This document shows positions 581 to 23,129 of a DNA stretch of 64,000 bases, piece by piece. Source of the DNA: Enterobacteria phage GEC-3S; the sequence record HE978309; one strand, 5' to 3'. The translations under genes were made by a program, and so were the position numbers. Under the pieces are notes generated by a model. It had not been told where the DNA came from, did not search any database, and saw only the letters and a program-made list of their open reading frames with translations. The stretch's first letter is position 1. Each line of letters opens with the position of its first letter.

Positions 581-738
581 ACTTCACCTCATACATTCAT
601 AAACACAACAACGAATAATACAGTAACAGTTATCAACGCCATTTTCAACCCCATATTCATAATATGTTCTTCGCCTCACTATGGACAGTAGCATGTCGAT
701 GCGTGCCATTATAGACATCTAAATCGCTCTGTCAAGCA

Positions 739-770
739 CAAAAACAAAAAAGCCACCCCGAAGGATGGCT
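739..770 (-). terminator. rho-independent terminator downstream of hoc
   Basis: minus-strand hairpin AGCCATCC-UUCG-GGGUGGCU followed by a U-run. Confidence 0.5.
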
Positions 771-781
771 GATAGATTTCA

Positions 782-1996
782 TTAAGCAGGATGCGTTTCA
801 CGAATGCGTAGAACTCGCTCTAACGTATCTCGGTCCAGTTTATGTAACTCTTTGGAATGATACATGAAACCATTGCGAGATTCCATGCAAGTGCAATCAC
901 TATATTTTTCTTCCGCTGCCGCGATTGTCTCCAGATCTTTGGCGTACTTGCTGGTTGAATAAACTTCTCGATCACGCCACTCTAACCCAGACTCATTGAA
1001 TTTAACAATCTCGTCAAATACCCACCATCCAATGTAGATAAATGAAGTTTTGCGCCACGGGATCGGATGTACGTAACGAAACATTTTAACAACTTCCATT
1101 GAACATTTTCGGCTTGTACTTGCTGCAACTTCTACTGTTTCATCTTCGATCTGTTGATATAGTTTAGCAACACACCAGAATTTGGCTGTGTCATCGTAAG
1201 TAGCACTCTCTTTGAACAGATGACCGTCTGGAGTGATAGAAAATCCTTCCAGTGCTTCGCCGACCTCACTACCGATCAGAGTCGGTGACATTTGCCCTTC
1301 GCGCTGCAAATACCAGTTATATTTGATCGTCAAATTAGGCATACCGCTAGAATCGCCTACAATGTTCTCTGACACAACATAATTAAGTAAGATCTCATTA
1401 CCTAGTGCCACGGTCTTTGATTCCACCACATCCTGATCTACGTTCATTGTTGCCAGCATTATTTTAGTCGATGCGCTAGCGGCTGAATCTTCCGACTCGC
1501 CCCACACTTTTACAGTATACACGCCGTTTTTATCTGCTGTAAATTCTTGGATCGTAATATCCTTTTTTGTGTCTATAACGTCATCGCCCTTACTCCAACT
1601 ATAATGTAGTTCATAGTTGTCTGCTGGAGTCTTCCCACCAGAAAAATTTACTGTTGCATGTAATTCTACGTCTTTTTGTGATGATACGTAGAAATGCTGC
1701 GGTTCGGTGATATTTACGATTAATTCAGCTTCTTCCATGAGGAAAACTTCAGATTCTACTGATGTCATCGTATCGGTATCTTGTACCGTTACTTTATAGC
1801 TACCCGCATTTTCACTTGTTGCGTCTGCTACAGTTAGCGTAGCTGTGCTATTTTCATGCGGTTGGTCGTCTTTTGTCCATGTATATGTCAAATTGCTGGG
1901 TAATGGTTCGTCACCCGCTACAGTCGCCGTTAAGGTGAAACCATCTCCAGCAAGAAAACATCTTTTGTTAGATTGTATTGATACTGTGAAAGCCAT
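782..1996 (-). CDS. hoc: Hoc, Ig-like-domain outer capsid decoration protein
   Basis: 404 aa; C-terminal YVHPIPWR...WWVFDEI...ESRNGFMYH matches my recollection of the T4 Hoc capsid-binding region; position upstream of inh/uvsW. Confidence 0.85.
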   Translation of the reverse strand: MAFTVSIQSNKRCFLAGDGFTLTATVAGDEPLPSNLTYTWTKDDQPHENSTATLTVADATSENAGSYKVTVQDTDTMTSVESEVFLMEEAELIVNITEPQHFYVSSQKDVELHATVNFSGGKTPADNYELHYSWSKGDDVIDTKKDITIQEFTADKNGVYTVKVWGESEDSAASASTKIMLATMNVDQDVVESKTVALGNEILLNYVVSENIVGDSSGMPNLTIKYNWYLQREGQMSPTLIGSEVGEALEGFSITPDGHLFKESATYDDTAKFWCVAKLYQQIEDETVEVAASTSRKCSMEVVKMFRYVHPIPWRKTSFIYIGWWVFDEIVKFNESGLEWRDREVYSTSKYAKDLETIAAAEEKYSDCTCMESRNGFMYHSKELHKLDRDTLERVLRIRETHPA

Positions 1997-2091
1997 ATAA
2001 AGCCACTCCCATCGAAAATCCGAATTTAATTAATTGAAATAGTTGATTGTCATCAACCAGATAACCATTGCGAGATTCCAATACATGAGTA

Positions 2092-2256
2092 TTAGAATAG
2101 TGATGCAACGAGGCCGAAATAGTATCGATCTCGTCTGGGTATTTGTTCTGCTATAAAGTCTGCTGTACTAACAACAATCTTTAACAGAAGTGGATGACCA
2201 ACGGAGCCATAAACCGGATCTTCTGTTTGATGTAATACATTGATTTTGTTAGACAT
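2092..2256 (-). CDS. hypothetical small protein (54 aa)
   Basis: ORF track 2092..2280; second ATG has AAAGAGGAT RBS, first does not. Confidence 0.35.
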   Translation of the reverse strand: MSNKINVLHQTEDPVYGSVGHPLLLKIVVSTADFIAEQIPRRDRYYFGLVASLF

Positions 2257-2336
2257 GTAGTATCCTCTTTTTAATTGCATAACGGAACTACAATTAAAAT
2301 TATAACAAATATTTCACAACTTTTATCACCCAAAAA

Positions 2337-3062
2337 TTACTTGAGTGTGTGGAATTGGCTATGTTTAGTCTCTCGCACCTTGACAGACCCATCGCGTTTG
2401 ATATAATAGATCAGTGACTTGAGGGTGTCGTGTACATACGCGTGCGGGAAACGCTCTGGATACTTCTTCCAATCTGGAGTATTAACGATCCAGTCGAAAA
2501 TCCACCACGGGCAGGAGTAGTAACCACGACCGCCACCGATCAAACAAATGGTCGGACGGAAACCAGTAAGATCGCAAAATGAATCAGTGTCATGTGCAGG
2601 AGAACGATGCTCTGCTTCGTCAGAGAAAATGTTTGCTACCGGAGATTTCACTTTAACTTCCGGTGCTTCTTCAACATCTGACTTAACTTCTTCGACCACT
2701 GGTTCAACTGCTGGAGATTCTTCTTTTGTTTCTTCAATGACGATCTCAGGTTCTTTCATTGCTTCAACCAGAGACGGATCAACTTCGTCGAATACTACTT
2801 TATCATCTGCGGTATCTGCTGCCAGAATAAGATCGTTAATACTGGTTCCTTCTGCCGGAGTTTCTTCTTCCATTTCGGAAGCCAGTTTAGTTAATTCGGT
2901 TTCTACGAACTCGATCATGTTCTCTAACGAGAGCGTCTTTTTGACCTTTATATCAAATTGTTTTGCGTAGTCCGCTAATTCTGTTTTAGCGGTTTTCTGT
3001 GCTTCTTTGTCGTCGGACGCCGCAATAGCGCGGAGTTCTTCGAAATATTCTTTATCAAACAT
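2337..3062 (-). CDS. acidic protein, possibly Inh (prohead protease inhibitor) by position
   Basis: 241 aa, Glu-rich centre, Cys-rich C-terminus; lies between hoc and uvsW as inh does in T4; no motif-level confirmation. Confidence 0.4.
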   Translation of the reverse strand: MFDKEYFEELRAIAASDDKEAQKTAKTELADYAKQFDIKVKKTLSLENMIEFVETELTKLASEMEEETPAEGTSINDLILAADTADDKVVFDEVDPSLVEAMKEPEIVIEETKEESPAVEPVVEEVKSDVEEAPEVKVKSPVANIFSDEAEHRSPAHDTDSFCDLTGFRPTICLIGGGRGYYSCPWWIFDWIVNTPDWKKYPERFPHAYVHDTLKSLIYYIKRDGSVKVRETKHSQFHTLK

Positions 3063-3088
3063 GTTATTCTCCTGATTGGGGGTGTTTG

Positions 3089-3096
3089 TATAAATA
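3089..3096 (+). promoter_or_regulatory. T4-type late promoter (TATAAATA) for uvsW
   Basis: exact TATAAATA about 35 nt upstream of the uvsW ATG. Confidence 0.5.
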
Positions 3097-3132
3097 TTTG
3101 TATACTGTATTTATTGAGTGAGGCTATTCGCT

Positions 3133-4635
3133 ATGCAAGATATTAAAATTCACTTTCTGAACTACTCCCATGTTCAAATTGAATGTAGCGATTCAATTTT
3201 ATTAGAAATGCGAGATTATTTTAGTTTTGAAGTCGAGGGAGCAAGATTTCAAAAAAGATTTAAGTATGGTGGATGGGATGGGCGTATTCGTCTTTTAGAT
3301 TACAACGGAAAGCTGCCAATCGGTCTAACTAAAACCGTGGGAATCTTCGCTAAAAATATGGGCTATAGCGTATGGGTAGATCCTCGCTTATTCGAAAAAG
3401 AACAAGTTACAGAAGAAGAAATTACAAAATGGTGTAATGACTTAGAATTATATTCCGGTGCTAACAGGATCACCCCTCATTGGTATCAATCAAAGGCCGT
3501 CTTTGAAGGTATTCATCATAAACGCCGTATGTTAGTTTTGCCTACGTCCGCTGGTAAATCTGCGATTGCTTGTATGTTGTCTCGTTGGTACTTAGAGAAT
3601 TACGAAGGGAAAGTGTTGATCATCGTTCCTACCACGTCGCTAGTGCTGCAAATGCGTGATGACTTTGTTGATTATCGCCAGTTTCCTTATGAAGCAATTC
3701 ATACTATCATGAGCGGTACTAGTAAACACGTAGGTGATCGCCTGATCGTTGTTAGTACGTGGCAATCTGCATGTAAACAACCTAGTGAGTGGTTCCAACA
3801 ATTCGGGATGGTTATTGTTGACGAATGTCACAAGGCTACTGCTAAAAACCTGCTAAACATCGTTACTGATATGGATCATTGCCAATTTAAGATCGGCATG
3901 ACTGGTTCCCCTCGTGACGGGAAAGCTAACATGATGCAGTATGTCGGGCTTTTTGGTGATATTTCTAAGATCGTGAGTATTGACCGCCTGATGGAAGAAG
4001 GTCAAGTGACAAAACTGAAAATTAACTGCCTTTTCCTTCGTTATACCGATGAGGAATGTAGCGCGGTTAAGGGGCGAGAATATGCGGAAGAGATCAAGTA
4101 TATTACATCTAACCCACGACGAAATAAGTTTGCTTGCAATTTGGCGCTAAAACTCGCTAAGAAGGGCGAAAACGTATTCCTGATGTTCCGCAATACTAAG
4201 CACGGAAAACTTATGTATGATGCGTTACAGAAGGTACACGACAAGGTTTATTATATTGACGGTGGAGTTAAGACAGAAGAACGTGATGAATTTAAGAAAA
4301 TGGCGGAGGGTGACACCGGGATCATTTGTGTTGCGTCTTATGGTGTGTTCTCTACTGGTGTTTCAATTAAGAATTTGCACCATGTTATTTTCGGTCATCC
4401 AGTGAAGGAATCAACTATCGTTCGTCAGAGTATCGGTCGTGCATTGCGTAAACATGGTTCGAAAGACATTGCAACGGTCTGGGATCTTATAGATCATCTG
4501 GCGGTGAAGACAAAGAGCAAGAATGCTAAGAAACAGTTTAGTCACCTTAATTATGCTCTTAAACATGCCCTTGAAAGAATAAAAATTTACAATACCGACC
4601 GATTCGAATATGTCACGAAAACCATCGAGATTTAA
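3133..4635 (+). CDS. uvsW: UvsW DNA/RNA helicase
   Basis: ORF track 3118..4635 starts at GTG; the ATG at 3133 gives MQDIKIHF..., matching T4 UvsW as I recall it; Walker A LPTSAGKS and helicase motifs. Confidence 0.93.
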   Translation: MQDIKIHFLNYSHVQIECSDSILLEMRDYFSFEVEGARFQKRFKYGGWDGRIRLLDYNGKLPIGLTKTVGIFAKNMGYSVWVDPRLFEKEQVTEEEITKWCNDLELYSGANRITPHWYQSKAVFEGIHHKRRMLVLPTSAGKSAIACMLSRWYLENYEGKVLIIVPTTSLVLQMRDDFVDYRQFPYEAIHTIMSGTSKHVGDRLIVVSTWQSACKQPSEWFQQFGMVIVDECHKATAKNLLNIVTDMDHCQFKIGMTGSPRDGKANMMQYVGLFGDISKIVSIDRLMEEGQVTKLKINCLFLRYTDEECSAVKGREYAEEIKYITSNPRRNKFACNLALKLAKKGENVFLMFRNTKHGKLMYDALQKVHDKVYYIDGGVKTEERDEFKKMAEGDTGIICVASYGVFSTGVSIKNLHHVIFGHPVKESTIVRQSIGRALRKHGSKDIATVWDLIDHLAVKTKSKNAKKQFSHLNYALKHALERIKIYNTDRFEYVTKTIEI

Positions 4636-4678
4636 TAAATAGGGGATTTAATGCCCCTTTATTCTACGGAGATTAAAA

Positions 4679-4915
4679 ATGATTAGCTTTAAACGTTTTT
4701 TGGTTGAGGCCGCTATTGACGGTTTCATGCGTAAGATTTATTCTTGTAATACTATCGAGGGATTAAATGAACTTGAGGCATATTATGAGAAGCGCAAGAA
4801 AGAAACAGAATTGAAACCTGCTGATGATATTTCGATCCGTGATGCCATCGCTGGACGCCGTAAGCAATTGGAAGCGGACAACGAGCCAGAAGAGGAGCCG
4901 GAAGAGGATTTTTAA
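4679..4915 (+). CDS. UvsW.1-like small protein
   Basis: 78-aa ORF directly downstream of uvsW, same size and position as T4 uvsW.1. Confidence 0.55.
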   Translation: MISFKRFLVEAAIDGFMRKIYSCNTIEGLNELEAYYEKRKKETELKPADDISIRDAIAGRRKQLEADNEPEEEPEEDF

Positions 4916-4916
4916 G

Positions 4917-4945
4917 ATATAAAAAAGCCCCATCAATGATGGGGC
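4917..4945 (-). terminator. rho-independent terminator (minus strand)
   Basis: hairpin GCCCCATC...GATGGGGC with a minus-strand U-run, between convergent genes. Confidence 0.45.
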
Positions 4946-4978
4946 AAAATAAACCAATTAAAATCGGTTATCAACAAA

Positions 4979-5155
4979 TTACATTAACAGCATTGTTTGC
5001 TCTACGAGTTGTTCTTGTTCTTCGCCGTTCGCATCTTCACTAATCGAACGTTCTGTTACTAGCTGTAAGCAGTAGCCAGTGTGAACAACGCCGTTTTCTG
5101 TCTGGACTGATAACGCATCCTCGACAGGTTGTTTACAACAAATACAGATTTTCAT
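4979..5155 (-). CDS. small Cys-rich protein downstream of uvsY (58 aa)
   Basis: sub-60-aa ORF MKICICCKQP...; AGGAGG RBS 6 nt before ATG. Confidence 0.4.
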   Translation of the reverse strand: MKICICCKQPVEDALSVQTENGVVHTGYCLQLVTERSISEDANGEEQEQLVEQTMLLM

Positions 5156-5176
5156 AAAAATTCCTCCTGCATGTAT

Positions 5177-5584
5177 TTAGCGACCAGATTCCAGCATACG
5201 CAATTCTATAGCATTCTTGATCGCAAATCCACGAGATTTAACGATATCAAGTGCGCGACCAGCAAAATCCATTACCATCTGGTAATATGCAATTTTCGTA
5301 TCAAGCGGTAAGATCTCGTCGTCTGCTGCCATGACAACTTTCAATTCTGATTTCTCATATTCAGCACGACACCAGTCATCACTACGGTTAGTGTAAAAGT
5401 CAAGACGATTTTTCATAGCCTTTTTCTTTTTAGCCTCAAGAGCAATCGTCTCTCTTTTCGCCTCGCTGTAAATCCTTAACCACTTTGAGTATACTACCGG
5501 ATTATTCAGCGCCTCCCATTGCAACTTAGTCGCATCGATCTTCATGTCAGCTTCTAATTGTTCTTTCAAATCGTTTAGGTCCAT
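5177..5584 (-). CDS. uvsY: UvsY recombination mediator
   Basis: 135 aa; LQWEALNNPVVYSKWL...KSRGFAIKN resembles T4 UvsY as I recall it. Confidence 0.9.
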   Translation of the reverse strand: MDLNDLKEQLEADMKIDATKLQWEALNNPVVYSKWLRIYSEAKRETIALEAKKKKAMKNRLDFYTNRSDDWCRAEYEKSELKVVMAADDEILPLDTKIAYYQMVMDFAGRALDIVKSRGFAIKNAIELRMLESGR

Positions 5585-5631
5585 AATATCCCCTTATTCA
5601 CACTAAGACCTATATCATATCACACACAAAA

Positions 5632-6030
5632 TCACTTTGCAAGTCTTATGCGTAGTTGTTCAAGATCATCTGGGTTATCTATTACTGAAAAGTAGATTGA
5701 TACTATGATTGAGTTATCGTCGTACTGCGGGGTTACTTCTACTGTCAGGTTTCGGACCCGTGGTTCATAGTTTCGGATCGCCTCATTGATGTTTTTTGAT
5801 AAGGTATCCACTGTCAGTGGGTTCATGTTCTCAAACAGTGATTTATTGAGATCGCATCCAAACAGTGGATCAAATGGACGAGATCCCTTGCGAGTAGTCA
5901 CGATCAGTAGAATAGAATCTTTAACCGCTTTAATCCCTATGTTCTTTTTAACGTCGTTATTCCACGATCTGGATATATTGAGATCCAAATCAGTATACAT
6001 CTGATTAATAGTTGCCATGTTATACCTCAA
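5632..6030 (-). CDS. 25: gp25 baseplate wedge protein
   Basis: 132 aa; TTRKGSRPFDPLFGCDL...NYEPRV...FSVIDNPDD matches T4 gp25. Confidence 0.9.
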   Translation of the reverse strand: MRYNMATINQMYTDLDLNISRSWNNDVKKNIGIKAVKDSILLIVTTRKGSRPFDPLFGCDLNKSLFENMNPLTVDTLSKNINEAIRNYEPRVRNLTVEVTPQYDDNSIIVSIYFSVIDNPDDLEQLRIRLAK

Positions 6031-16030: not shown

Positions 16031-16243
16031 TTATAATGCACCATCGAGCAATTGCTCTAAGGTGTATCCTGAATAGTCTTTTTCAATCAGGGTATATTTT
16101 CCTACTCGTTTAATACAACCGCGCATTTCCACGTATTCTGTGTAGTTGATGGTACGAGTTGTTCCATCTTCCAGTAATGCAGTACCGATTTCGTTAATGC
16201 GGTCATAAGTTACGTCGGTAATGATGATTTCGATGTTAGCCAT
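16031..16243 (-). CDS. hypothetical early protein (70 aa)
   Basis: ORF track; GGAGTATCAA RBS; promoter cassette upstream. Confidence 0.5.
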   Translation of the reverse strand: MANIEIIITDVTYDRINEIGTALLEDGTTRTINYTEYVEMRGCIKRVGKYTLIEKDYSGYTLEQLLDGAL

Positions 16244-16277
16244 TTGATACTCCTTAGTAGTTCGTTTCGGTATGGGT

Positions 16278-16318
16278 GTATTATGATATACACCCTCTGT
16301 TATGTCAACAACTTTTTA
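16278..16318 (-). promoter_or_regulatory. early promoter cassette (PeSL-like)
   Basis: minus strand TTGACA, 17 nt, CATAAT; stem-loop GGGTGTAT...ATACACCC. Confidence 0.55.
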
Positions 16319-16495
16319 GAACATTTTTGAAATTAATTTTGCTTTGATTTCGCAGAGAACACCTAAAGATTTCTCGTCACCCGCTTTTGCTGCTTCTGAT
16401 TGCATTTTTGAAATGGCTTCAATGTCAGTGCAATTATAAGCCGCTTGAACTTTAGCGATTGCGATGATTGCCGATTCGATGGTTAAGTGTTTCAT
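16316..16495 (-). CDS. hypothetical small protein (59 aa)
   Basis: sub-60-aa ORF MKHLTIESAIIAIAK...; GGAGAATCAAAC RBS; own promoter cassette. Confidence 0.45.
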   Translation of the reverse strand: MKHLTIESAIIAIAKVQAAYNCTDIEAISKMQSEAAKAGDEKSLGVLCEIKAKLISKMF

Positions 16496-16524
16496 GTTTG
16501 ATTCTCCTTTCGTTTCGGTATGTG

Positions 16525-16566
16525 TGCATTATAGGGGATCACCGATCCCCTGTCAACAACTTTTTA
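16525..16566 (-). promoter_or_regulatory. early promoter cassette (PeSL-like)
   Basis: TTGACA, spacer GGGGATCGGTGATCCCC (17-nt palindrome), TATAAT. Confidence 0.6.
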
Positions 16567-17082
16567 GTTATTTTTTAATTGCTCATCTTGCAATAGGGAA
16601 ATCACATGCTGGCGATGTTCTTCCGATTGAGGAACACCGAAAAAGTTTGTTTTGTAGAAATACTCTAATCGGTCTTCTCGTGTGCTCTCTTCCATCATGA
16701 TCGCGGGTAGTCCGAGATTTCGGAAACGTCGCTTTTCTGCTGGCGTAAAATCACTGTAATACAACATAGAATCATCATTACCCGCAATGCTAAATTCATC
16801 CTTCATAAAGGAGAATATTGCGTTTAAACGCTGTTTACCGTCCACGATTTCGATCTCATAGCGAGATCCATCATCAATCTTAGCCATTGCGATAGCACCA
16901 ACCGGAAAATCATTAATCAGGTTTTCGATAAACATACGTTTGTTTTCGGTGTCCCATACCAAAGGACGCTGATAATCTGGGTTCATGTTGATATAGCCAT
17001 CTTCTAACCACGCCTCATAAACAGAGATGACAAAGTTTTTAGTATTGGTATAGTAACGGCGTTTAGGCGTTAAACGGTTCAT
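16564..17082 (-). CDS. DUF262 (ParB/GmrS N-terminal-like) domain protein
   Basis: ORF track 16564..17118; start ATG coupled to upstream stop (TAACATG) with AGGAGA RBS; motifs PDYQRPLVWD and IVDGKQRL. Confidence 0.6.
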   Translation of the reverse strand: MNRLTPKRRYYTNTKNFVISVYEAWLEDGYINMNPDYQRPLVWDTENKRMFIENLINDFPVGAIAMAKIDDGSRYEIEIVDGKQRLNAIFSFMKDEFSIAGNDDSMLYYSDFTPAEKRRFRNLGLPAIMMEESTREDRLEYFYKTNFFGVPQSEEHRQHVISLLQDEQLKNN

Positions 17083-17083
17083 G

Positions 17084-17416
17084 TTATAGTCTCCTGAATG
17101 GATCATCACGTAAATCAATATCTTTTAAGAACTCATCCCATGAATGGCGGATATTGTTCTTAATTCTCCAGATAAGCGCAGGGATTGAACGCTCTCCCAT
17201 CTGGAAGTAGGGATCATATGATCCGTATGCCCAATATGCTACTACAATTCCACAATCAGCGCAATAGTATTCTATTTCACTTGCTGGCGACCAAATTCCA
17301 TCAATATGATCGGTGATCCTGCTTTCGATGTTATGGCTATGGCAATCAGGGCAACGGATGCAATGACCTTGTTTATCGTAATTTGACGTTAGCGAATACT
17401 TAAACAATCTCATCAT
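17084..17416 (-). CDS. zinc-ribbon protein (two CxxC pairs)
   Basis: 110 aa; CIRCPDC...CADCG. Confidence 0.5.
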   Translation of the reverse strand: MMRLFKYSLTSNYDKQGHCIRCPDCHSHNIESRITDHIDGIWSPASEIEYYCADCGIVVAYWAYGSYDPYFQMGERSIPALIWRIKNNIRHSWDEFLKDIDLRDDPFRRL

Positions 17417-18129
17417 AGATCCTTATTGGCTTCAAATACTGCCTTTGCGAATCCTCGCGGGGTAAGTGACCTGATAGTCTTTGTTCTGGTTCCTTTCCCG
17501 CCTAGCTTAGAATGCTGTTTACTGTACCCTTTATTAATATGCAACGGTTTCTTTTCTGGCATTATAAAGCCTTGTCCGGTCCATAAGCAAGTCTTTTTCG
17601 GGTACATATCACGGGCGGCGATATACTCAGGAAACGTAGGATGTTTATCATCTTCCGGCAAATAACCGCCATATTCCCACGGATGGAACATGTAATCAGG
17701 CTTACGCCACATACTAGAGATAACGCTTACAGGATTCTCTATCATGTAGGGAACTCCTAGCCATTCACCCAAATAAGCGGTTATTTTAGCTGCCCGTACA
17801 TCATGAACTTGAATCAACGGTCCTTGTTCTCGTTTCTTTCGTTCAAAGTGTGCAGCGCCACTAACAGCTAAATTGGTACACGGTGGGAATGCAAAGATAA
17901 TATCCGGTTTCCCCCATTCAAGGTCCATTGCTCTTTCCAGCCAGTTCAAATCAATCCAGGTGTTTACATAGGTAATGTTTGGATGTTCAAATCTGGTATT
18001 ATACTTTTTGTATGTACCGTGGTCGGCGTCATCCGCATTAAAGCAGACTACCTTATGACCTGCTTTAGCCCATTCTAGACCCATTATCCCCGATCCATCA
18101 AAGTTGCAGAATATTAATTTTTGTTTCAT
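17413..18129 (-). CDS. C5-cytosine methyltransferase-like SAM-dependent enzyme (compact, no obvious target-recognition domain)
   Basis: 238 aa; motif I-like FCNFDGSGIMG, PC motif FPPCTNLAVSG, ENV-like MIENPVS, C-terminal RSLTPRGFAKAV. Confidence 0.5.
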   Translation of the reverse strand: MKQKLIFCNFDGSGIMGLEWAKAGHKVVCFNADDADHGTYKKYNTRFEHPNITYVNTWIDLNWLERAMDLEWGKPDIIFAFPPCTNLAVSGAAHFERKKREQGPLIQVHDVRAAKITAYLGEWLGVPYMIENPVSVISSMWRKPDYMFHPWEYGGYLPEDDKHPTFPEYIAARDMYPKKTCLWTGQGFIMPEKKPLHINKGYSKQHSKLGGKGTRTKTIRSLTPRGFAKAVFEANKDL

Positions 18130-18371
18130 ATACGACCCTTTAACCCAGCACAGATTTTAGTCGGTTCTTTACCGTGCCACATTAAGTAAAGTCCGTTAAT
18201 GCGACCTTGTTTTGTGTGTGATTCTTTTCTGATCTTCTTATAGTGTCGTGCTTCCTCAACTGATTGTTTAGAATACCAATCATAAAGGAAGAGGCACAAA
18301 GGCCAACCATTAGCGGCCTTAATGCAGTTATTAAGAAATTCCTTATTGCGTTTAATTAATTTTCTTTTCAC
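18126..18371 (-). CDS. hypothetical early protein (81 aa)
   Basis: ORF track; overlapping start/stop with neighbours. Confidence 0.5.
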   Translation of the reverse strand: MKRKLIKRNKEFLNNCIKAANGWPLCLFLYDWYSKQSVEEARHYKKIRKESHTKQGRINGLYLMWHGKEPTKICAGLKGRI

Positions 18372-18619
18372 GCTGCCCCCGTTGGTTTGATAGTAACAGA
18401 ATCTAAAAGACCTTTGTTAGCCAGTTCGCGGCAAGTTTTCAGATCCGCAACTTCCCAGCCAGCCGCAATCAGGTTATCAATCAGGCTGTTAGCAACTTCT
18501 TCGCTCATGAAAGAGCACTGTTTGCCGATGGTGTAGCGTACACGCTGTAATTTCAGTTTACGGAAGCCTTTAACGTTCAGGTCTTTAGCGATTTTCTTTG
18601 CGGTTTCGATGTTAGCCAT
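18368..18619 (-). CDS. hypothetical early protein (83 aa)
   Basis: ORF track; first gene after a promoter cassette; GGAGAATCAAAC RBS. Confidence 0.5.
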   Translation of the reverse strand: MANIETAKKIAKDLNVKGFRKLKLQRVRYTIGKQCSFMSEEVANSLIDNLIAAGWEVADLKTCRELANKGLLDSVTIKPTGAA

Positions 18620-18656
18620 TGTTTGATTCTCCTAAGTGGTATCTCGTCTTGATGGT

Positions 18657-18698
18657 TGTATTGTAGGGGAGTTATCCTCCCCTGTCAACACTTTTTAT
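18657..18698 (-). promoter_or_regulatory. early promoter cassette (PeSL-like)
   Basis: TTGACA, spacer GGGGAGGATAACTCCCC palindrome, TACAAT. Confidence 0.55.
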
Positions 18699-18702
18699 AA
18701 AA

Positions 18703-18870
18703 TTATTTGTTAATTTCTGGTGCGTTGCTAGGATAGTAACCTTCTTTAACTCCGAGGTATTTCGCAACCATCCCTACAATCTTCTGTGCTACTACAATGT
18801 CAAATTTCAGATAATCTTCGCCGTAGGTTTCAATGATATATGCTTCACATGCTGCTTTAGTCTCGAACAT
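18703..18870 (-). CDS. small protein, copy A of a duplicated gene (55 aa)
   Basis: MFETKAACEAYIIETYGEDYLKFDIVVAQKIVGMVAKYLGVKEGYYPSNAPEINK; about 85% nt identity to 21979..22146. Confidence 0.5.
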   Translation of the reverse strand: MFETKAACEAYIIETYGEDYLKFDIVVAQKIVGMVAKYLGVKEGYYPSNAPEINK

Positions 18871-18902
18871 TTTGATTCTCCTATATTTCGTTTCGGTATG
18901 GG

Positions 18903-18944
18903 TGTATTATAGGGGATCTCCCGATCCCCGTCAACAACTTTTTT
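18903..18944 (-). promoter_or_regulatory. early promoter cassette (PeSL-like)
   Basis: TTGACG, spacer GGGATCGGGAGATCCCC, TATAAT, conserved leader. Confidence 0.6.
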
Positions 18945-18948
18945 AAAA

Positions 18949-19230
18949 TTATTCGTGATTAGTTTCGATGTTGTGCATTTTGCACCAGTTCAGCCAATCG
19001 ACCAGGTCTTGATAGTTGATGCTTTTATCTGCTGCCATCGTTTTTGTCTTGATACCCATATGTGCGTTATGAGTAAGCATTTTTACAGTGAACTCAATTT
19101 TATCGCCTTTAGCTTTAACATCAACCAGTTTGGTCCACTGGCTACCAGCGCCGCGAATGTTCATGCCAACGATGTTTCCGATGTATGCTTCTTTGTTTTT
19201 CAGGATTTCGGTTGCTTTGATGAATTTCAT
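18949..19230 (-). CDS. hypothetical early protein (93 aa)
   Basis: ORF track; GGAGAATCAAA RBS. Confidence 0.5.
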   Translation of the reverse strand: MKFIKATEILKNKEAYIGNIVGMNIRGAGSQWTKLVDVKAKGDKIEFTVKMLTHNAHMGIKTKTMAADKSINYQDLVDWLNWCKMHNIETNHE

Positions 19231-19261
19231 TTTTGATTCTCCAGTTCGTTTCGGTATGGGT

Positions 19262-19303
19262 GTATTATGCTATGTTCTTACTTTGGTGTCAACAACTTTT
19301 TTA
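19262..19303 (-). promoter_or_regulatory. early promoter cassette (PeSL-like)
   Basis: TTGACA, 17-18 nt, CATAAT, conserved leader ACACCCATACCGAAACGAAC. Confidence 0.55.
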
Positions 19304-19570
19304 GATATTTTCAGAAATAAATTTTAAAACTTGACGTAAATGTTTCTCATCTTTGATAGTCGCCGGAAGTTCTTCTTTTACTTCCTGTGCAAGATAGATA
19401 TTTCCGTTCCAAGTGAAAGATCCGTCTTCGTTTACGCGATAGCTGAACATCCACTCGCAATCATTTTCGATTTCATATACACATAGAAGAGTATAATCTT
19501 CAAAGCTATTGATTTCAAGGTCGAAGCCGTGACGTTTTGCAAAGTTGGTAGTGGTTTTAGTCAGTGCCAT
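19301..19570 (-). CDS. hypothetical early protein (89 aa)
   Basis: ORF track; GGAGAATCAAAC RBS. Confidence 0.5.
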   Translation of the reverse strand: MALTKTTTNFAKRHGFDLEINSFEDYTLLCVYEIENDCEWMFSYRVNEDGSFTWNGNIYLAQEVKEELPATIKDEKHLRQVLKFISENI

Positions 19571-19606
19571 TGTTTGATTCTCCTAAGTGGTATCTCGTTT
19601 CGATGG

Positions 19607-19648
19607 GTGTATTATGCTATAGGCGTGATCTGGTGTCAATTCTTTTTT
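19607..19648 (-). promoter_or_regulatory. early promoter cassette (PeSL-like)
   Basis: TTGACA then CATAAT-like -10, conserved leader variant. Confidence 0.5.
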
Positions 19649-19659
19649 TAAATTTTATG

Positions 19660-19687
19660 CAATAAAAAAGCCGACGCTATGGTCGGC
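19660..19687 (-). terminator. rho-independent terminator
   Basis: hairpin AGCCGACC-AUAGC-GUCGGCU then UUUUUUAUU. Confidence 0.5.
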
Positions 19688-19695
19688 TAATAAAA

Positions 19696-20004
19696 TCATT
19701 TAGACAAATAATCATTCAGTGCAATCCGGTCGGCGTATGCTGGTGTTACGTCAATCGCAATCACTTTAACGCGTGCTTTCTTGCGACCTGGGTTTTCACG
19801 TAACCAGTGCTCATGACCGTGAACATTTTTATACTGCGATGCTTCTTCGAAGGTACGGATCGGACCTGGGTAATCAGCGTAAAGGATCTCTAGATCTTCG
19901 GTGATGTAAAAATATACATCGTAATTGCTGTTCTCTAGCTTAAGCAGAGACTTTCGGAACATTGGGAGATTTTCGCGGGTAAATTCAAAGATATTATCTT
20001 TCAT
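19696..20004 (-). CDS. HxHW-family small protein, paralog 1
   Basis: 102 aa; YDVYFYITEDLEILY...HGHEHW...VIAIDV. Confidence 0.55.
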   Translation of the reverse strand: MKDNIFEFTRENLPMFRKSLLKLENSNYDVYFYITEDLEILYADYPGPIRTFEEASQYKNVHGHEHWLRENPGRKKARVKVIAIDVTPAYADRIALNDYLSK

Positions 20005-20026
20005 AGTATTATCCTCAATAGTTGGA

Positions 20027-20049
20027 TGAAAAGGGGCGTTAACGCCCCC
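20027..20049 (-). terminator. hairpin, weak terminator
   Basis: GGGGCG-TTAA-CGCCCC with a short U-run; near-copy of the 16005 hairpin. Confidence 0.3.
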
Positions 20050-20054
20050 ATATA

Positions 20055-20342
20055 TTAAAACAGTCCTTCCTGTACACCGTAGTAGAGTTCGTCGCTGATA
20101 ATTTCATTAATGCGACGGTGTGCATATTCCTGATTTGCGAAGTTGTCAGCAAGTTCTATTTTAGTTTCGCCGTCATGAGTCCATTTAGTGATAACTTTAC
20201 CATCTGCAAATTTGAAGTTGAACTCTTTAGCTACTGCATCGCGTACCAGACGTGCAAACTTATTGTTGCGGATTGCATTGTCGGTTTCGTGTGCAGCGTG
20301 AGCAAATTTGTTAACTTTCAGAGTGATAGTGATGTATGCCAT
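20055..20342 (-). CDS. hypothetical early protein (95 aa), related to 23382..23693
   Basis: ORF track; shared segment ...RNNKFARLVRDAVAKEFNFKF vs ...LIREVRKALAKEFNTKI. Confidence 0.5.
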   Translation of the reverse strand: MAYITITLKVNKFAHAAHETDNAIRNNKFARLVRDAVAKEFNFKFADGKVITKWTHDGETKIELADNFANQEYAHRRINEIISDELYYGVQEGLF

Positions 20343-20385
20343 AATTTGATTCTCCTAGTTAGAAAGTGTATCTCGTTTCGATGGG

Positions 20386-20427
20386 GATATTATGCTATAT
20401 CCCCGATCCGGTGTCAACACTTTTTAT
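20386..20427 (-). promoter_or_regulatory. early promoter cassette (PeSL-like)
   Basis: TTGACA; -10 CATAAT lies inside hairpin GGGGATAT...ATATCCCC. Confidence 0.5.
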
Positions 20428-20702
20428 AAAATAATTTTTTGATATTTTTCTATGATGTTCGTGTAAGTCACATCAACCGCTAGCACTGTTGCTTCGAATC
20501 CACCGTTTAGCCAATGGCTATGATCATGGTCGTGAAAGAAACCTAGACCAGTACGAAGACCTTCTTTATATTCTGCGCGTACATTCAGTTTGTCGTCGAT
20601 AAACAGATAAAACCATGAATTTTTACTAGGATTGATGATACAACCTTTCAGATTAGGGAGAATATCACGACTAAGAATAAACTTATCACCTACTTTGAAC
20701 AT
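20424..20702 (-). CDS. HxHW-family small protein, paralog 2
   Basis: ORF track 20424..20717; start ATG with GAGGA RBS; WFYLFIDDKLNV...HDHDHSHW...VLAVDV. Confidence 0.55.
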   Translation of the reverse strand: MFKVGDKFILSRDILPNLKGCIINPSKNSWFYLFIDDKLNVRAEYKEGLRTGLGFFHDHDHSHWLNGGFEATVLAVDVTYTNIIEKYQKIIL

Positions 20703-20706
20703 AATA

Positions 20707-21027
20707 TTAGTCCTCACTTATAAGGTCAAACCAATTGTTTTTCGCATAATGCTTAATGCGTGCTTGATCTGCTTCCGCTGGTGATAGATTCCATGCAACC
20801 ACTACAACTTCTGACGCATCGTCATCAGTTTCCGATACCCAATGATTGTGATTCATACAGTTATTTGCTATCGAGTGAGCAAATGATTTCATCACTGGAG
20901 ACGTATAATCATAGTAACGGATTTTCAGATTTTCATCAACATACAAATAGATCGTATAAGGTTTATATTCAGTAACAAGTAACAGACAGTTACGCAATTC
21001 TGGGAAAATCTTTTTAGTTAATTTCAT
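20707..21027 (-). CDS. HxHW-family small protein, paralog 3
   Basis: 106 aa; YTIYLYVDENLKIRY...NHNHW...VVVAWNL. Confidence 0.55.
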   Translation of the reverse strand: MKLTKKIFPELRNCLLLVTEYKPYTIYLYVDENLKIRYYDYTSPVMKSFAHSIANNCMNHNHWVSETDDDASEVVVVAWNLSPAEADQARIKHYAKNNWFDLISED

Positions 21028-21229
21028 ATTCTAGTTCTCCGTAATACACGGTAATCCATTTTTCTTCATATTTTGTATCTTTCCAGCACACAATACCGTT
21101 TACTGTGCAATCTTTGGAATTGACGAATGATTCATATTGTTCCGCATCTTCCATCATTTCATGAGCGGTCTTTTCATCGAATATATCGCAGATCGCTTTA
21201 TATGCTCGATAATCTTTAAATTTGCTCAT
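21014..21229 (-). CDS. small protein, tandem duplicate (copy 1)
   Basis: MSKFKDYRAYKAICDIFDEKTAHEMMEDAEQYESF..., paralog of the adjacent upstream gene. Confidence 0.5.
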   Translation of the reverse strand: MSKFKDYRAYKAICDIFDEKTAHEMMEDAEQYESFVNSKDCTVNGIVCWKDTKYEEKWITVYYGELEYEIN

Positions 21230-21231
21230 AA

Positions 21232-21441
21232 TTAACACCACTCAAGAGTTTTTGAAAACACATCTATCCATTGTTGAGTATATGCGGTTTCTTTCCATGA
21301 TACAATACCAGTCGAATAATGGTTTTTGTTTCCAGAAAAGGACGGGCATTTTGATGCATCTTCCATCATCTTTTCGGCGAACTCTGGTTCGTATACTCGC
21401 AAGATCTGTTGATATGCTTTATAATCTTTAAACTTACTCAT
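21232..21441 (-). CDS. small protein, tandem duplicate (copy 2)
   Basis: MSKFKDYKAYQQILRVYEPEFAEKMMEDASKCPSF... Confidence 0.5.
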   Translation of the reverse strand: MSKFKDYKAYQQILRVYEPEFAEKMMEDASKCPSFSGNKNHYSTGIVSWKETAYTQQWIDVFSKTLEWC

Positions 21442-21722
21442 AACAACACCACCGATACATCGTAATCATTCGCGACCTTATCGGCTTCTTCAACCGACAT
21501 AATACCTTCTGCGACAATTGGCATAGGGTGATCGTGATTCCACCAATGGTCATGTATATCAATTTCAGTTTTGCCGGAAAATGAATCATGTTTGACGTTT
21601 TTCACTTTATACCCGATGTGACCGTCGTGGTCAATAAAGATATAGTTTCCGAAAATCGGTGTCTGTAAAATCATACCGAAAAATTTTTCTTTGTTGTTCG
21701 GGTCGAGTGTAATCATTTTCAT
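21438..21722 (-). CDS. HxHW-family small protein, paralog 4
   Basis: 94 aa; NYIFIDHDGHIGY...HDHWWNHDH. Confidence 0.5.
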   Translation of the reverse strand: MKMITLDPNNKEKFFGMILQTPIFGNYIFIDHDGHIGYKVKNVKHDSFSGKTEIDIHDHWWNHDHPMPIVAEGIMSVEEADKVANDYDVSVVLL

Positions 21723-21734
21723 AATATATTCCTC

Positions 21735-21914
21735 TTAGAAAGGGATGGTCATTTCTTGAGCTTGTACATTCTCGTTAGGATTAAACTTCATCCAACCGAT
21801 ATTGTCTACCAGCATATGCACATTTTTATCATATCCTACGTGAGTAGTCAACACTAAATGTGCTTTACATTCAACGATGATTTCCATGTACTTCTGAACT
21901 TCGATAGCTTTCAT
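21735..21914 (-). CDS. hypothetical small protein (59 aa)
   Basis: sub-60-aa ORF MKAIEVQKYMEIIVECKAHL...; GGAGAATCAAA RBS; promoter cassette upstream. Confidence 0.4.
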   Translation of the reverse strand: MKAIEVQKYMEIIVECKAHLVLTTHVGYDKNVHMLVDNIGWMKFNPNENVQAQEMTIPF

Positions 21915-21943
21915 TTTGATTCTCCGTTTGTTGTCTTGATGGG

Positions 21944-21985
21944 AGTATCTTACTACTCCCTTTAATCATTGTCAACGATTATTTG
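21944..21985 (-). promoter_or_regulatory. early promoter cassette (PeSL-like)
   Basis: TTGACA, spacer containing GGGAGTAGTAAGATACTCCC hairpin, weak -10. Confidence 0.45.
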
Positions 21986-22146
21986 TTAATTTCTGGTGCG
22001 TTGCTCGGATAGTAACCTTCTTTAACACCCAGATATTTTGCAACCATTCCGGTGATCTTCTGTGCTACTACGATATCGAATTTCAGGTAGTCTTCACCGT
22101 GGTTTGCTACAATGTATGCTTCGCATTCTGCTTTAGTCTGGAACAT
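21979..22146 (-). CDS. small protein, copy B of a duplicated gene (55 aa)
   Basis: ORF track 21979..22212; start at MFQTKAECEAY... with GGAGAATCAAAA RBS; duplicate of 18703..18870. Confidence 0.5.
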   Translation of the reverse strand: MFQTKAECEAYIVANHGEDYLKFDIVVAQKITGMVAKYLGVKEGYYPSNAPEINK

Positions 22147-22177
22147 TTTTGATTCTCCTATATCTCGTTGGTATGTG

Positions 22178-22219
22178 TGTAGTATAGGGGATCGGTGATC
22201 CCCTGTCAACAACTTTTTT
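22178..22219 (-). promoter_or_regulatory. early promoter cassette (PeSL-like)
   Basis: TTGACA, spacer GGGGATCACCGATCCCC, TATACT. Confidence 0.55.
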
Positions 22220-22526
22220 ATTCTTCATCTTCATTTTTATCTTTATATGCGTACTTCATAAATTTGTCTGCTACTTTGTCCGCGTTTTCAGGTTCTACGT
22301 CTGACGCTAGGACAACAGCTAGTTCGGTTTTGTCGTTTCCGTCATACCAATGATTATGAGTGTCGTTTTCTTCGATATAAAACGAATCATTTGGAGTTGT
22401 TCGACAATATACGTCTAAATTCCCATCGATATAAAAGATCCAATCCGAATACAAAATGATTGCTTTAGCCAGATTTTTATTGTCTCTTACAAAAGGTTCC
22501 GCGACAAATAGCTTAGTTTGTTCCAT
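22218..22526 (-). CDS. HxHW-family small protein, paralog 5
   Basis: ORF track 22218..22583; start at MEQTKLF... with GAGGAAAA RBS; WIFYIDGNLDVY...HNHW...AVVLASDV. Confidence 0.55.
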   Translation of the reverse strand: MEQTKLFVAEPFVRDNKNLAKAIILYSDWIFYIDGNLDVYCRTTPNDSFYIEENDTHNHWYDGNDKTELAVVLASDVEPENADKVADKFMKYAYKDKNEDEE

Positions 22527-22542
22527 AATATTTTCCTCAAAA

Positions 22543-22734
22543 TTATACAGCTTCGTAAACTTCCCAATGTTCAGCGCCAACACGCTTAACGAAAAGGTTT
22601 TCTTTGATGTTATTCATAAACGTCTGGATAGATTTAATGCGGTTGGAAGGTTTCCAGTCTTCGTTGGCATTGCGGCGATACATAATAACATTACCAGTTC
22701 GCTTATATTCAGCAACCATTTTAAGATCACACAT
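22543..22734 (-). CDS. hypothetical early protein (63 aa)
   Basis: ORF track; GAGGATAAT RBS. Confidence 0.45.
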   Translation of the reverse strand: MCDLKMVAEYKRTGNVIMYRRNANEDWKPSNRIKSIQTFMNNIKENLFVKRVGAEHWEVYEAV

Positions 22735-22779
22735 AATATTATCCTCAATTTGTGGGAGAGTATTACCCCTCCCAATGAT

Positions 22780-22821
22780 TGTTATGTTATATCACACAAA
22801 ATGGCGTGTCAATGCTTCTTT
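22780..22821 (-). promoter_or_regulatory. early promoter (sigma70-like)
   Basis: TTGACA, 17 nt, TAACAT; overlaps the 3' end of the upstream ORF. Confidence 0.4.
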
Positions 22822-23112: not shown

Positions 23113-23129
23113 TTAGTCACCTCTCTTTA

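What the first reader, a model, noticed from the sequence alone, without database searches (positions are those of the whole stretch)
868..2080. Perfect 18-bp direct repeat flanking most of hoc
AACCATTGCGAGATTCCA occurs at 868-885, inside the hoc codons for the conserved ESRNG capsid-binding motif, and again at 2063-2080 in the intergenic region upstream of hoc. By a rough estimate an 18-mer repeat is expected by chance well under once in 64 kb. It could be a recombination footprint or a substrate for deleting the dispensable hoc gene.
Basis: seen in the sequence. Interest (0 to 1): 0.3.

Follow-up and report, generated by a model that had tools for sequence, protein, structure and literature searches.

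The report
Leftover of a lost second hoc gene
The 18-base repeat is real, but it is simply the same conserved capsid-binding motif (ESRNG) written twice: once in the working hoc gene and once in the decayed stump of a second, much larger hoc gene that close relatives of this phage still carry intact.

Summary
Observation confirmed. AACCATTGCGAGATTCCA occurs exactly twice (868-885, 2063-2080). About 0.045 repeated 18-mers are expected by chance per 64 kb. The window is a Krischvirus (RB49/Phi1/ECD7 group).

The upstream copy is not ordinary intergenic DNA. The 340-bp inh-hoc spacer is the remnant of a second Hoc gene, which I call hoc2. This 846-aa gene has several Ig domains plus the Hoc capsid-binding domain, and it sits intact between inh and hoc in six related phages (JK32, G2248, UPWr_E1, Brandy, SSG23, SFHK24) and on metagenomic contigs.

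In the window a 2309-nt out-of-frame internal deletion left codons 1-37 (2146-2256) joined to the last 37 codons (2034-2145). The second block still spells ...HVLESRNGYLV.

In JK32, where both genes are intact, the ESRNG site is the longest DNA match between the paralogs (17/18). One synonymous CGT>CGC change on the relic branch made it 18/18.

The relic shows relaxed constraint:
- lost stop codon
- 5 of 6 changed codons nonsynonymous
- a further 75-bp deletion in 41 of 51 relatives
- a SNP in the motif in JSE

No relative has lost hoc through this repeat. The finding is ordinary gene decay and of low interest.

Side finding: the Inh C-terminal domain is a remote homologue of the Hoc capsid-binding domain (hhalign 94%, E 1e-7).

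The parts
868..885 (-). 18-mer copy 1, inside hoc. On the minus strand it reads TGGAATCTCGCAATGGTT and covers codons (M371)-E372-S373-R374-N375-G376-(F377).
   Evidence: the ESRNG loop is the conserved capsid-contact loop of Hoc (PMC10385173)
782..1996 (-). [quoted passage not shown]
   Evidence: PDB 3SHS (RB49 Hoc) E 2e-194 and T4 Hoc C-domain E 4e-15
2063..2080 (-). 18-mer copy 2. It formerly encoded (L)-E-S-R-N-G-(Y) of Hoc2 (aa 833-837 in JK32 numbering) and now lies in a pseudogene fragment and the hoc leader.
2034..2145 (-). hoc2 3' fragment. It corresponds to nt 2430-2541 of intact JK32 hoc2 (last base of codon 810, codons 811-846, and the former stop). It reads KYPDEIDTISASLHHYSNTHVLESRNGYLVDDNQLF. 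The former TAA stop is now CAA at 2034-2036.
   Evidence: matches phrog_32100
2146..2256 (-). hoc2 5' fragment: start codon plus the first 37 codons (MSNKINVLHQTEDPVYGSVGHPLLLKIVVSTADFIAE). It is 94% identical in DNA to the UPWr_E1 hoc2 5' end and has a 9-nt in-frame loss. The deletion junction GAA^CAAATACCC lies between 2146 and 2145.
   Evidence: matches phrog_19377 positions 1-34
2092..2256 (-). 54-aa 'hypothetical protein' ORF annotated in ECD7/Phi1/Makalu. It is a chimera of Hoc2 codons 1-37 and 17 frameshifted codons read from the hoc2 3' fragment.
2257..2336 (-). Former hoc2 upstream region with its ribosome-binding site (AGAGGA at 2263-2268). It is conserved with the region upstream of intact hoc2 in JK32.
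2024..2025 (-). Site where 13 nt are missing relative to JK32. The loss removes the terminator-like hairpin (GCCGACCTTCGGGTCGGCTTTT) that follows intact hoc2.
2146..2225 (-). Interval bounded by two CAGAA microhomologies (2221-2225 and 2146-2150). 41 of 51 relatives (RB49, JSE, kvi and others) carry a further 75-bp deletion between them.
2337..3062 (-). inh (inhibitor of prohead protease), 241 aa. Its C-terminal ~70 aa are remotely homologous to the Hoc capsid-binding domain, so inh, hoc2 and hoc form a tandem set sharing this domain.

Best explanation
The two 18-mers are the same protein motif encoded in two paralogous genes. An ancestor of this phage carried, in order on the minus strand, inh, a large Hoc paralog (hoc2, 846 aa: a string of Ig-like domains plus the Hoc capsid-binding domain) and hoc. 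Both Hoc proteins need the Glu-Ser-Arg-Asn-Gly loop that contacts the centre of the gp23 hexamer. That loop is therefore the best-conserved stretch between the paralogs, in DNA as well as protein (17 of 18 nt in phages that keep both genes).

In the lineage leading to the window, a 2309-nt out-of-frame deletion removed almost all of hoc2. It left the start codon plus 37 codons fused to the last 37 codons. The ESRNG-coding segment survived in the 3' stump, which now serves as the spacer and leader upstream of hoc. One synonymous-site change (CGT to CGC) on the relic branch turned the 17/18 match into the perfect 18-mer.

The repeat has no demonstrated function of its own. It is a molecular fossil.

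Shown: identity and position of the repeat, homology of the spacer to both ends of intact hoc2, the junction, the frameshift, the stop loss, relaxed constraint, and further decay in relatives.

Inferred: the direction of the event (loss rather than gain), and that the CGT>CGC change is drift.
For: - Locus structure. JK32, G2248, UPWr_E1, Brandy and SSG23 have an intact 846/847-aa gene between inh and hoc, annotated as Hoc in JK32. It carries multiple Ig Pfam hits and matches the PHROG 'Hoc-like head decoration' family. The same arrangement occurs on metagenomic contigs.
- Mapping. BLASTN maps the window spacer to the 5' end of hoc2 and to its 3' end, with about 2.3 kb missing. The junction refines to GAA^CAAATACCC at 2146/2145, a 2309-nt deletion that is not a multiple of 3.
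- Homology to hoc. The relic frame matches Hoc residues 343-387 by BLASTP, E 3e-8. With ESRNG removed, the flank score is 50 and 0 of 200,000 shuffles reach it.
- Paralog DNA identity. In JK32, the hoc1 and hoc2 C-domains share 39/82 aa and 56% nt. Their longest exact nucleotide runs are 10 and 7, adjacent at ESRNG.
- Codon usage. All five intact hoc2 genes use CGT. All relics and hoc1 use CGC.
- Relaxed constraint. Intact hoc2 genes differ at up to 21/111 nt with 0-1 nonsynonymous codons. The relic differs from the nearest intact gene (Brandy) at 8 nt, with 5 nonsynonymous codons including stop TAA>CAA.
- Further decay. 41 of 51 relatives carry an extra 75-bp deletion. JSE has a TCT>TAT SNP inside the motif. 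The terminator hairpin is lost.
- PHROG fragments. phrog_19377 and phrog_32100, both 'unknown function', match Hoc2 residues 1-34 and 809-846.
- Literature. ESRNG is the conserved capsid-contact loop, and phages with two Hoc genes exist (PMC10385173).
Against: - The spacer is no more variable than its neighbours among six close relatives: 12/340 variable sites, against 0.084 per site at hoc third codon positions. A purely neutral fossil might be expected to vary more.
- The hoc leader made from the relic folds better than shuffled sequence (z -3.1), with part of the 18-mer pairing to the hoc Shine-Dalgarno. Some secondary function of the relic is therefore not excluded.
- The direction of the event (loss versus gain of hoc2) is inferred from the frameshifted two-ended remnant, not from a rooted phylogeny.
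Confidence: 0.9

Rival explanations
1. Gene conversion. A short patch was copied from hoc into the relic (or the reverse), homogenising the ESRNG segment, so the perfect identity reflects ongoing recombination between the paralogous segments.
For: All five intact hoc2 genes have CGT, whereas the relic has CGC, identical to hoc. T4-type phages recombine very actively (own knowledge).
Against: Only one nucleotide needs explaining. Of 7 relic-specific changes in the 111-nt fragment, 3 match hoc, against about 2.3 expected by chance. They are scattered and interleaved with changes that do not match, so no tract is visible. Flanks diverge immediately outside the 18-mer.
Confidence: 0.1
2. Deletion substrate. 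The direct repeat drives recombinational loss of the 1195 bp between the copies, producing Hoc-less variants at a biologically meaningful frequency.
For: The repeat is exact, 18 bp, in direct orientation, and flanks most of a gene that is dispensable in the laboratory. Short direct repeats are known end points of deletions in T4 (own knowledge: Singer and Westlye 1988). The locus has a record of such events: the 75-bp deletion between CAGAA repeats and a 9-nt loss between GAYTTT repeats.
Against: All 51 RB49/Phi1-type genomes retain full hoc. The predicted junction ATGTATTGGAATCTCGCAATGGTTTCATGTA is absent from IMG/VR and JGI metagenome contigs, although only one relic-bearing contig exists in each. 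The repeat is fully explained by ancestry without invoking this role.
Confidence: 0.04
3. The relic has been co-opted. Either it serves as a structured 5' leader that tunes hoc translation, or it encodes a small protein. Candidates are the 54-aa chimera here, or the 65-aa ORF RB49p168.2 in RB49-type phages, which still contains the strand-ESRNG-strand segment and could compete with Hoc for the hexamer centre.
For: The leader folds with z -3.1, and CUC of the 18-mer pairs with GAG of the hoc Shine-Dalgarno. The same fold appears in all RB49/Phi1-type relatives. Spacer diversity is low. The hoc2 ribosome-binding site and start codon are retained. The stop-codon loss plus the 75-bp deletion create a 65-aa ATG-initiated ORF in RB49.
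Against: The relatives are nearly identical, so no covariation test is possible. The JSE SNP hits both the ESRNG codon and the CUC. The two relic forms have different ORFs in different frames. The ESRNG frame has no credible start or ribosome-binding site in the window. Five of 6 changed codons are nonsynonymous. A 36-aa fragment lacks strands 1-2 and helix 1 with the WW contacts of the capsid-binding domain.
Confidence: 0.07
4. Chance coincidence, or a target-site duplication or att-like site left by insertion of hoc as a mobile cassette.
For: Direct repeats flanking a dispensable gene look superficially like a target-site duplication.
Against: Chance expectation is 0.045 per window. Both copies are in-frame codons of homologous protein domains. 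In relatives with hoc2 intact, each copy sits inside its own gene. No empty site or mobile-element genes are present.
Confidence: 0.01

Closest known systems
Phages that encode two Hoc-like proteins sharing one capsid-binding domain (Serratia phage Muldoon, Enterobacter phage PG7; Fokine et al. 2023, PMC10385173)
   Same: Two neighbouring genes each carry the conserved Hoc capsid-binding domain with the ESRNG loop, attached to different numbers of Ig-like domains. JK32-type Krischviruses (846 aa plus 408 aa) fit this pattern. So do VR5 and KM2, seen here.
   Different: In the window only one copy works. The long copy is reduced to two short fused ends, is frameshifted, and is annotated as 'hypothetical protein' or as intergenic DNA.
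Gene remnants (pseudogenes) left by internal deletions in the plastic regions of T4-type genomes (own knowledge of T4-superfamily comparative genomics)
   Same: An internal deletion with little or no microhomology, retention of both gene ends, loss of reading frame, secondary small deletions between 5-6-nt repeats, and variable presence among close relatives.
   Different: Nothing different in kind. The only special feature is that the remnant still carries the most conserved motif of a surviving paralog 1.2 kb away, which creates a conspicuous exact repeat.
Deletion formation between short direct repeats in phage T4 (own knowledge: Singer and Westlye 1988, rII deletions)
   Same: An exact 18-bp direct repeat 1195 bp apart, flanking non-essential DNA, is the kind of substrate at which such deletions end.
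   Different: No deletion product has been observed in any relative. The repeat exists because of ancestry, not because it has this role.

Membership tests
Hoc capsid-binding domain coding sequence (upstream copy as part of a hoc paralog) | Conserved Glu-Ser-Arg-Asn-Gly loop between strands 3 and 4 | tested here: met
   The relic frame reads HVLESRNGYLV. The loop is defined in PMC10385173.
Hoc capsid-binding domain coding sequence (upstream copy as part of a hoc paralog) | Homology to Hoc outside the five-residue motif | tested here: met
   BLASTP E 3e-8 over 45 aa. Flank-only score 50, with 0 of 200,000 shuffles reaching it. Matches phrog_32100, which Hoc also hits.
Hoc capsid-binding domain coding sequence (upstream copy as part of a hoc paralog) | Complete domain (strands 1-2 with the YVHPxP/R motif, helix 1 with WW) attached to Ig-like domains in an open reading frame | tested here: not met
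   Only the last 36 codons of the domain survive, and no start codon is in frame. The Ig domains and the RYVHPIPWR...GYWV part are deleted. It is therefore a remnant, not a member gene.
Pseudogene / gene remnant | Colinear homology to an intact gene at the same locus in relatives | tested here: met
   Intact hoc2 lies between inh and hoc in 6 phage records and on metagenomic contigs. The spacer aligns to both of its ends.
Pseudogene / gene remnant | Disrupted reading frame | tested here: met
   A 2309-nt deletion shifts the frame, and the former stop TAA is now CAA.
Pseudogene / gene remnant | Relaxed selective constraint and continuing decay | tested here: met
   Five of 6 changed codons are nonsynonymous against the nearest intact gene, versus 0-1 among intact genes. 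An extra 75-bp deletion occurs in 41 of 51 records, and JSE has a motif SNP. Caveat: overall spacer diversity is not elevated.
Direct-repeat deletion substrate acting on hoc | Exact direct repeat flanking dispensable DNA | tested here: met
   Hoc is non-essential in the laboratory (PMC10385173).
Direct-repeat deletion substrate acting on hoc | Existence of the predicted deletion product | tested here: not met
   0 of 51 relatives lack hoc. The junction is absent from IMG/VR and JGI metagenomes, but power is low.
Direct-repeat deletion substrate acting on hoc | Measurable deletion frequency in phage populations | not testable with these tools
   Needs junction PCR or deep sequencing of lysates.
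Target-site duplication / attachment site of a mobile cassette | Repeats created by insertion, with an empty site holding a single copy in relatives and mobility genes nearby | tested here: not met
   Both copies are ancestral codons of two paralogous genes. No integrase or homing endonuclease is present at the locus.
Known structured RNA / repeated regulatory cassette | Match to an Rfam family, or recurrence of the 18-mer at other intergenic sites | tested here: not met
   No Rfam match near either copy at E<=1. There are only two copies in 64 kb even with 2 mismatches allowed.

The most novel reading that the evidence does not exclude
The fossil repeat could still be biologically active as a recombination switch. 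Homologous or slipped-strand exchange between the two 18-mers would excise 1195 bp and produce Hoc-less virions at a low but steady rate. That would give RB49/Phi1-type populations a standing subpopulation with an undecorated, less immunogenic and less adhesive capsid. A related unexcluded reading is that the relic has been co-opted as a structured hoc leader, or as a micro-ORF carrying the ESRNG loop, that tunes Hoc occupancy.
Probability: 0.05. Interest if true: 0.5.

Novelty: new member of a known kind. Interest (0 to 1): 0.2.

Why it matters
The practical value is in annotation and evolutionary history.

- In about 50 sequenced RB49/Phi1-type coliphages, the inh-hoc spacer and the small 'hypothetical proteins' annotated in it are fragments of a lost second Hoc gene. 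This includes two PHROG families of unknown function, phrog_19377 and phrog_32100. They should not be treated as genes of unknown function.
- The genus Krischvirus varies in capsid decoration. Some members carry a long (846 aa) and a short (about 405 aa) Hoc that presumably compete for the same hexamer-centre site. Others, including the structural model phage RB49, lost the long one. This is relevant to Hoc display engineering and to ideas about Hoc-mediated adhesion.
- The repeat itself needs no special mechanism.
- The more interesting by-product is that Inh, the minor head protein that inhibits the prohead protease, ends in a domain homologous to the Hoc capsid-binding domain. This suggests how Inh might dock on gp23 and that inh, hoc2 and hoc arose as a tandem family.

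Tried and rejected
- Chance repeat: rejected.
- Longer degenerate DNA repeat around the 18-mer: the repeat finder and in-register comparison show no DNA similarity beyond 18 nt. The homology is visible only at protein level and through the intact paralog.
- Junction at the GACTTT (ADF/EDF) microhomology, as the first BLASTN overlap suggested: rejected. Comparison with UPWr_E1 shows the 5' fragment continues 9/9 through ATAGCAGAA, so GAA^CAAATACCC is the junction.
- Gene-conversion tract: no support.
- Known RNA family: none.
- T4 late promoter TATAAATA upstream of hoc or inh on the minus strand: none exact. Only two one-mismatch sites lie upstream of inh, so the promoter driving hoc was not identified.
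- Universal codon usage as the explanation for the identity: rejected. T4 hoc encodes ESRNG as GAA TCG CGT AAT GGA.
- Natural hoc-deletion variants: none found, but the metagenome scans had almost no power.
- Literature: no paper with 'ESRNG' as a string, or on an RB49 hoc2 remnant or an Inh-Hoc link, in the searchable library. Sathaliyawala et al. 2010 is not held.
- Structural test of the Inh-Hoc link: the AF2 model from a shallow alignment had pLDDT 54, and Foldseek against the PDB gave nothing. This is inconclusive. The large homology search returned almost only relatives above 89% identity.

Full report
**1. The observation**

AACCATTGCGAGATTCCA occurs at 868-885 and 2063-2080 on the + strand with no mismatches. 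There is no third copy on either strand even with two mismatches allowed (family D6). In 200 first-order Markov simulations of the window, the mean number of repeated 18-mers was 0.045, so chance is not a reasonable explanation. The window has about 50 other exact repeats of 16-33 nt. They cluster at 16-24, 31-32 and 58-60 kb and are unrelated to this one.

**2. Context**

The window is a Krischvirus. The 600-3200 region is 95.5-99% identical to ECD7, Phi1, RB49, JSE and about 50 other records, and the spacer 1990-2340 is 100% identical to Phi1.

Genes on the minus strand are:
- hoc, 782-1996: 404 aa, E 2e-194 to the RB49 Hoc crystal structure 3SHS, with a C-domain matching T4 Hoc
- a small ORF, 2092-2256
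- inh, 2337-3062

uvsW starts at 3118 on the plus strand.

Copy 1 of the repeat spans Hoc E372-G376. This is the Glu-Ser-Arg-Asn-Gly loop that Fokine et al. 2023 show sitting at the centre of the gp23 hexamer. They also cite earlier mutational work showing that mutations in this region affect capsid binding (PMC10385173).

**3. What the upstream copy is**

Read on the minus strand in its own frame, the spacer encodes KYPDEIDTISASLHHYSNTHVLESRNGYLVDDNQLF. This matches Hoc residues 343-387 (BLASTP E 3e-8). With ESRNG removed, the flanks still score far above shuffles (0 of 200,000 reach the observed score).

The decisive evidence comes from relatives. Shigella phage JK32, phages G2248, UPWr_E1, Brandy, SSG23 and SFHK24, and several metagenomic contigs have an intact 846/847-aa gene between inh and hoc. 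It is annotated as Hoc in JK32. It has multiple Ig-domain Pfam hits and matches the PHROG 'Hoc-like head decoration' family. It ends in a Hoc capsid-binding domain that is 48% identical to that of Hoc1. I call it hoc2.

The window spacer aligns to the first ~110 nt and the last ~112 nt of hoc2, and nothing lies in between. UPWr_E1 has the closest 5' end (94% identity). Using it, the junction is GAA^CAAATACCC between window 2146 and 2145. That corresponds to loss of hoc2 nt 121-2429, which is 2309 nt and out of frame. There is also a 9-nt in-frame loss between GAYTTT repeats.

The 54-aa 'hypothetical protein' annotated in ECD7, Phi1 and the Makalu phages is therefore a chimera. It joins 37 Hoc2 N-terminal codons to 17 frameshifted codons. 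PHROGs agrees independently: phrog_19377 (unknown function) matches Hoc2 residues 1-34, and phrog_32100 (unknown function) matches Hoc2 residues 809-846.

**4. Why the match is exactly 18 nt**

In JK32, where both genes are intact, the two capsid-binding domains share 56% of nucleotides. Their longest exact runs are 10 and 7 nt, adjacent at the ESRNG codons, which gives 17/18. All five intact hoc2 genes use CGT for the arginine, while every relic and hoc itself use CGC. One synonymous-site transition on the relic branch therefore produced the perfect 18-mer.

A gene-conversion patch from hoc cannot be excluded for a single base. However, of the 7 relic-specific changes only 3 match hoc, against about 2.3 expected by chance, and they are scattered. 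The identity is not a general codon-usage effect either, since T4 hoc writes ESRNG as GAA TCG CGT AAT GGA.

**5. Evidence that the relic is decaying**

- Intact hoc2 genes differ at up to 21 of the last 111 nt, yet show only 0-1 amino-acid changes. The relic differs from its nearest intact relative at 8 nt, 5 of 6 changed codons are nonsynonymous, and the TAA stop has become CAA.
- Thirteen nucleotides that form the terminator-like hairpin after intact hoc2 are missing.
- Of 51 relic-bearing records, 41 carry a further 75-bp deletion between CAGAA repeats. It removes the original junction region but keeps its 3' side, so it is most simply a secondary event.
- JSE has TCT>TAT inside the motif.

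Two observations do not fit a purely neutral fossil and remain unexplained. First, the spacer is not more variable than its neighbours among six relatives. Second, the hoc leader formed by the relic folds with z = -3.1, with CUC of the 18-mer pairing to the hoc Shine-Dalgarno. The relatives are too similar for a covariation test.

**6.

Recombination between the copies would remove 1195 bp and inactivate hoc. This is plausible in a T4-type phage (own knowledge of short-repeat deletions in T4). However, none of the 51 relic-bearing genomes lacks hoc. The predicted junction is absent from IMG/VR and JGI metagenome contigs, which hold only one relic-bearing contig each. The idea stays untested and is not needed to explain the repeat.

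**7. Comparison with what is known**

Phages with two Hoc genes, and very long Hoc proteins, are described (Muldoon, PG7; PMC10385173). I also saw multi-Hoc arrangements in VR5, KM2 and Invicta, and a 1092-aa Hoc in AB1I1T. Gene remnants from internal deletions are commonplace in T4-type genomes (own knowledge). I found no paper describing the hoc2 remnant in RB49-type phages. So this is a new instance of a known kind of thing, useful mainly for annotation.

**8. Side finding**

Inh ends in GY..(L/C)PWWI..WI..(N/T)PDWK...SLIYYI.R(D/N)G.V.(I/V)RET(R/K)(N/H)S.F. Hoc domains read (S/A)(F/Y)I..GWWV.DEI....G.DWK......V.V(Q/M)ESRNG(Y/F)(I/M).

Profile-profile comparison of 11 diverse Inh C-termini with 16 diverse Hoc capsid-binding domains gives probability 94%, E 1.1e-7, over 61 columns. 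It places RETRNS on QESRNG. The reversed control scores 9.8, and 300 column shuffles average 11.6 +/- 2.6 with a maximum of 23.4, against a real score of 40.9. Smaller profiles gave P 2.7e-4.

Pfam's precomputed hits give Inh the families Phage_Inh_N and Phage_Inh_C and give Hoc no C-domain family, so the link is not in that annotation. An AlphaFold model from a shallow alignment was poor (pLDDT 54). Its strand-strand-helix...helix-strand-loop-strand order agrees with the published Hoc C-domain topology, but Foldseek found nothing. On this evidence inh, hoc2 and hoc look like a tandem family sharing one capsid-docking domain. This deserves a proper structural test.

**9. Verdict**

The best explanation is a paralogous ESRNG motif preserved in the stump of a deleted second hoc gene, with confidence 0.9. 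Novelty: new member of a known kind. Interest: low (0.2).

Noticed in passing
window 2340-2555 (minus), C-terminal ~70 aa of Inh; compared with Hoc 782-1090 (minus) and loci L005, L011-L016, L022-L026: The Inh C-terminal domain (Pfam Phage_Inh_C) appears to be a remote homologue of the Hoc capsid-binding domain. hhalign gives 94% probability, E 1.1e-7, over 61 columns, and Inh RETRNS aligns to Hoc QESRNG. No shuffle control came close (0 of 300). Pfam hits and the searchable literature do not link the two. The AF2/Foldseek test was inconclusive.
   Followed up: partly
window 2092-2256 (minus); RB49 locus L010 1979-2176: Two PHROG families of 'unknown function' are fragments of the hoc2 pseudogene rather than independent genes. 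They are phrog_19377 (the 54-aa ORF here) and phrog_32100 (the 65-aa RB49p168.2 type). Many GenBank records annotate them as hypothetical proteins.
   Followed up: yes
window 1985-2100 (minus): The hoc 5' leader folds better than shuffled sequence (z -3.1). A 10-bp hairpin uses the first 6 nt of the upstream 18-mer, and CUC of the 18-mer pairs with GAG of the hoc Shine-Dalgarno. The fold is the same in all near-identical relatives. The JSE SNP hits the CUC. No covariation test was possible.
   Followed up: partly
window 1997-2336: The pseudogene spacer is not more variable than the flanking genes among six relatives: 0.035 variable sites per nt, against 0.084 (hoc) and 0.153 (inh) at third codon positions. 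This is unexplained. Possible causes are small sample size, mosaic recombination inflating hoc and inh diversity, or constraint on the hoc leader.
   Followed up: no
window 16200-23800, 31590-32110, 58380-59730: Dozens of exact repeats of 16-33 nt occur between intergenic sites, for example AGGGGATCACCGATCCCCTGTCAACAACTTTTT and TTCGTTTCGGTATGGGTGTATTAT. They resemble the repeated promoter/stem-loop cassettes reported for RB49/Phi1-type genomes (own knowledge). They are unrelated to the 18-mer.
   Followed up: no
loci L025 (VR5 4001-5947), L026 (KM2 3617-4964), L022 (Invicta 596-1120), L024 (AB1I1T 974-4252): Multiple Hoc-like genes at the inh-hoc locus are common across T4-type genera. Variants include proteins with the capsid-binding domain at the N-terminus (Invicta gp2, and the 91-aa KM2 protein) and a 1092-aa Hoc in an Acinetobacter phage.
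   Followed up: partly
window 708-735 (minus), 2380-2407 (plus), 3089-3096 (plus): Two perfect 12/12 sigma-70 consensus sites were found. One lies just downstream of the hoc terminator on the minus strand. The other is antisense inside the 3' end of inh, with a TG extension. An exact T4-late-type TATAAATA sits 22 nt upstream of uvsW. No exact late-type box was found upstream of hoc or inh.
   Followed up: no
locus L013 (Acinetobacter phage ZZ1) 1374-1574: A 66-aa hypothetical ORF sits between inh and hoc in ZZ1, in the same position as the hoc2 relic here. I did not examine whether it is also a remnant of a Hoc paralog.
   Followed up: no
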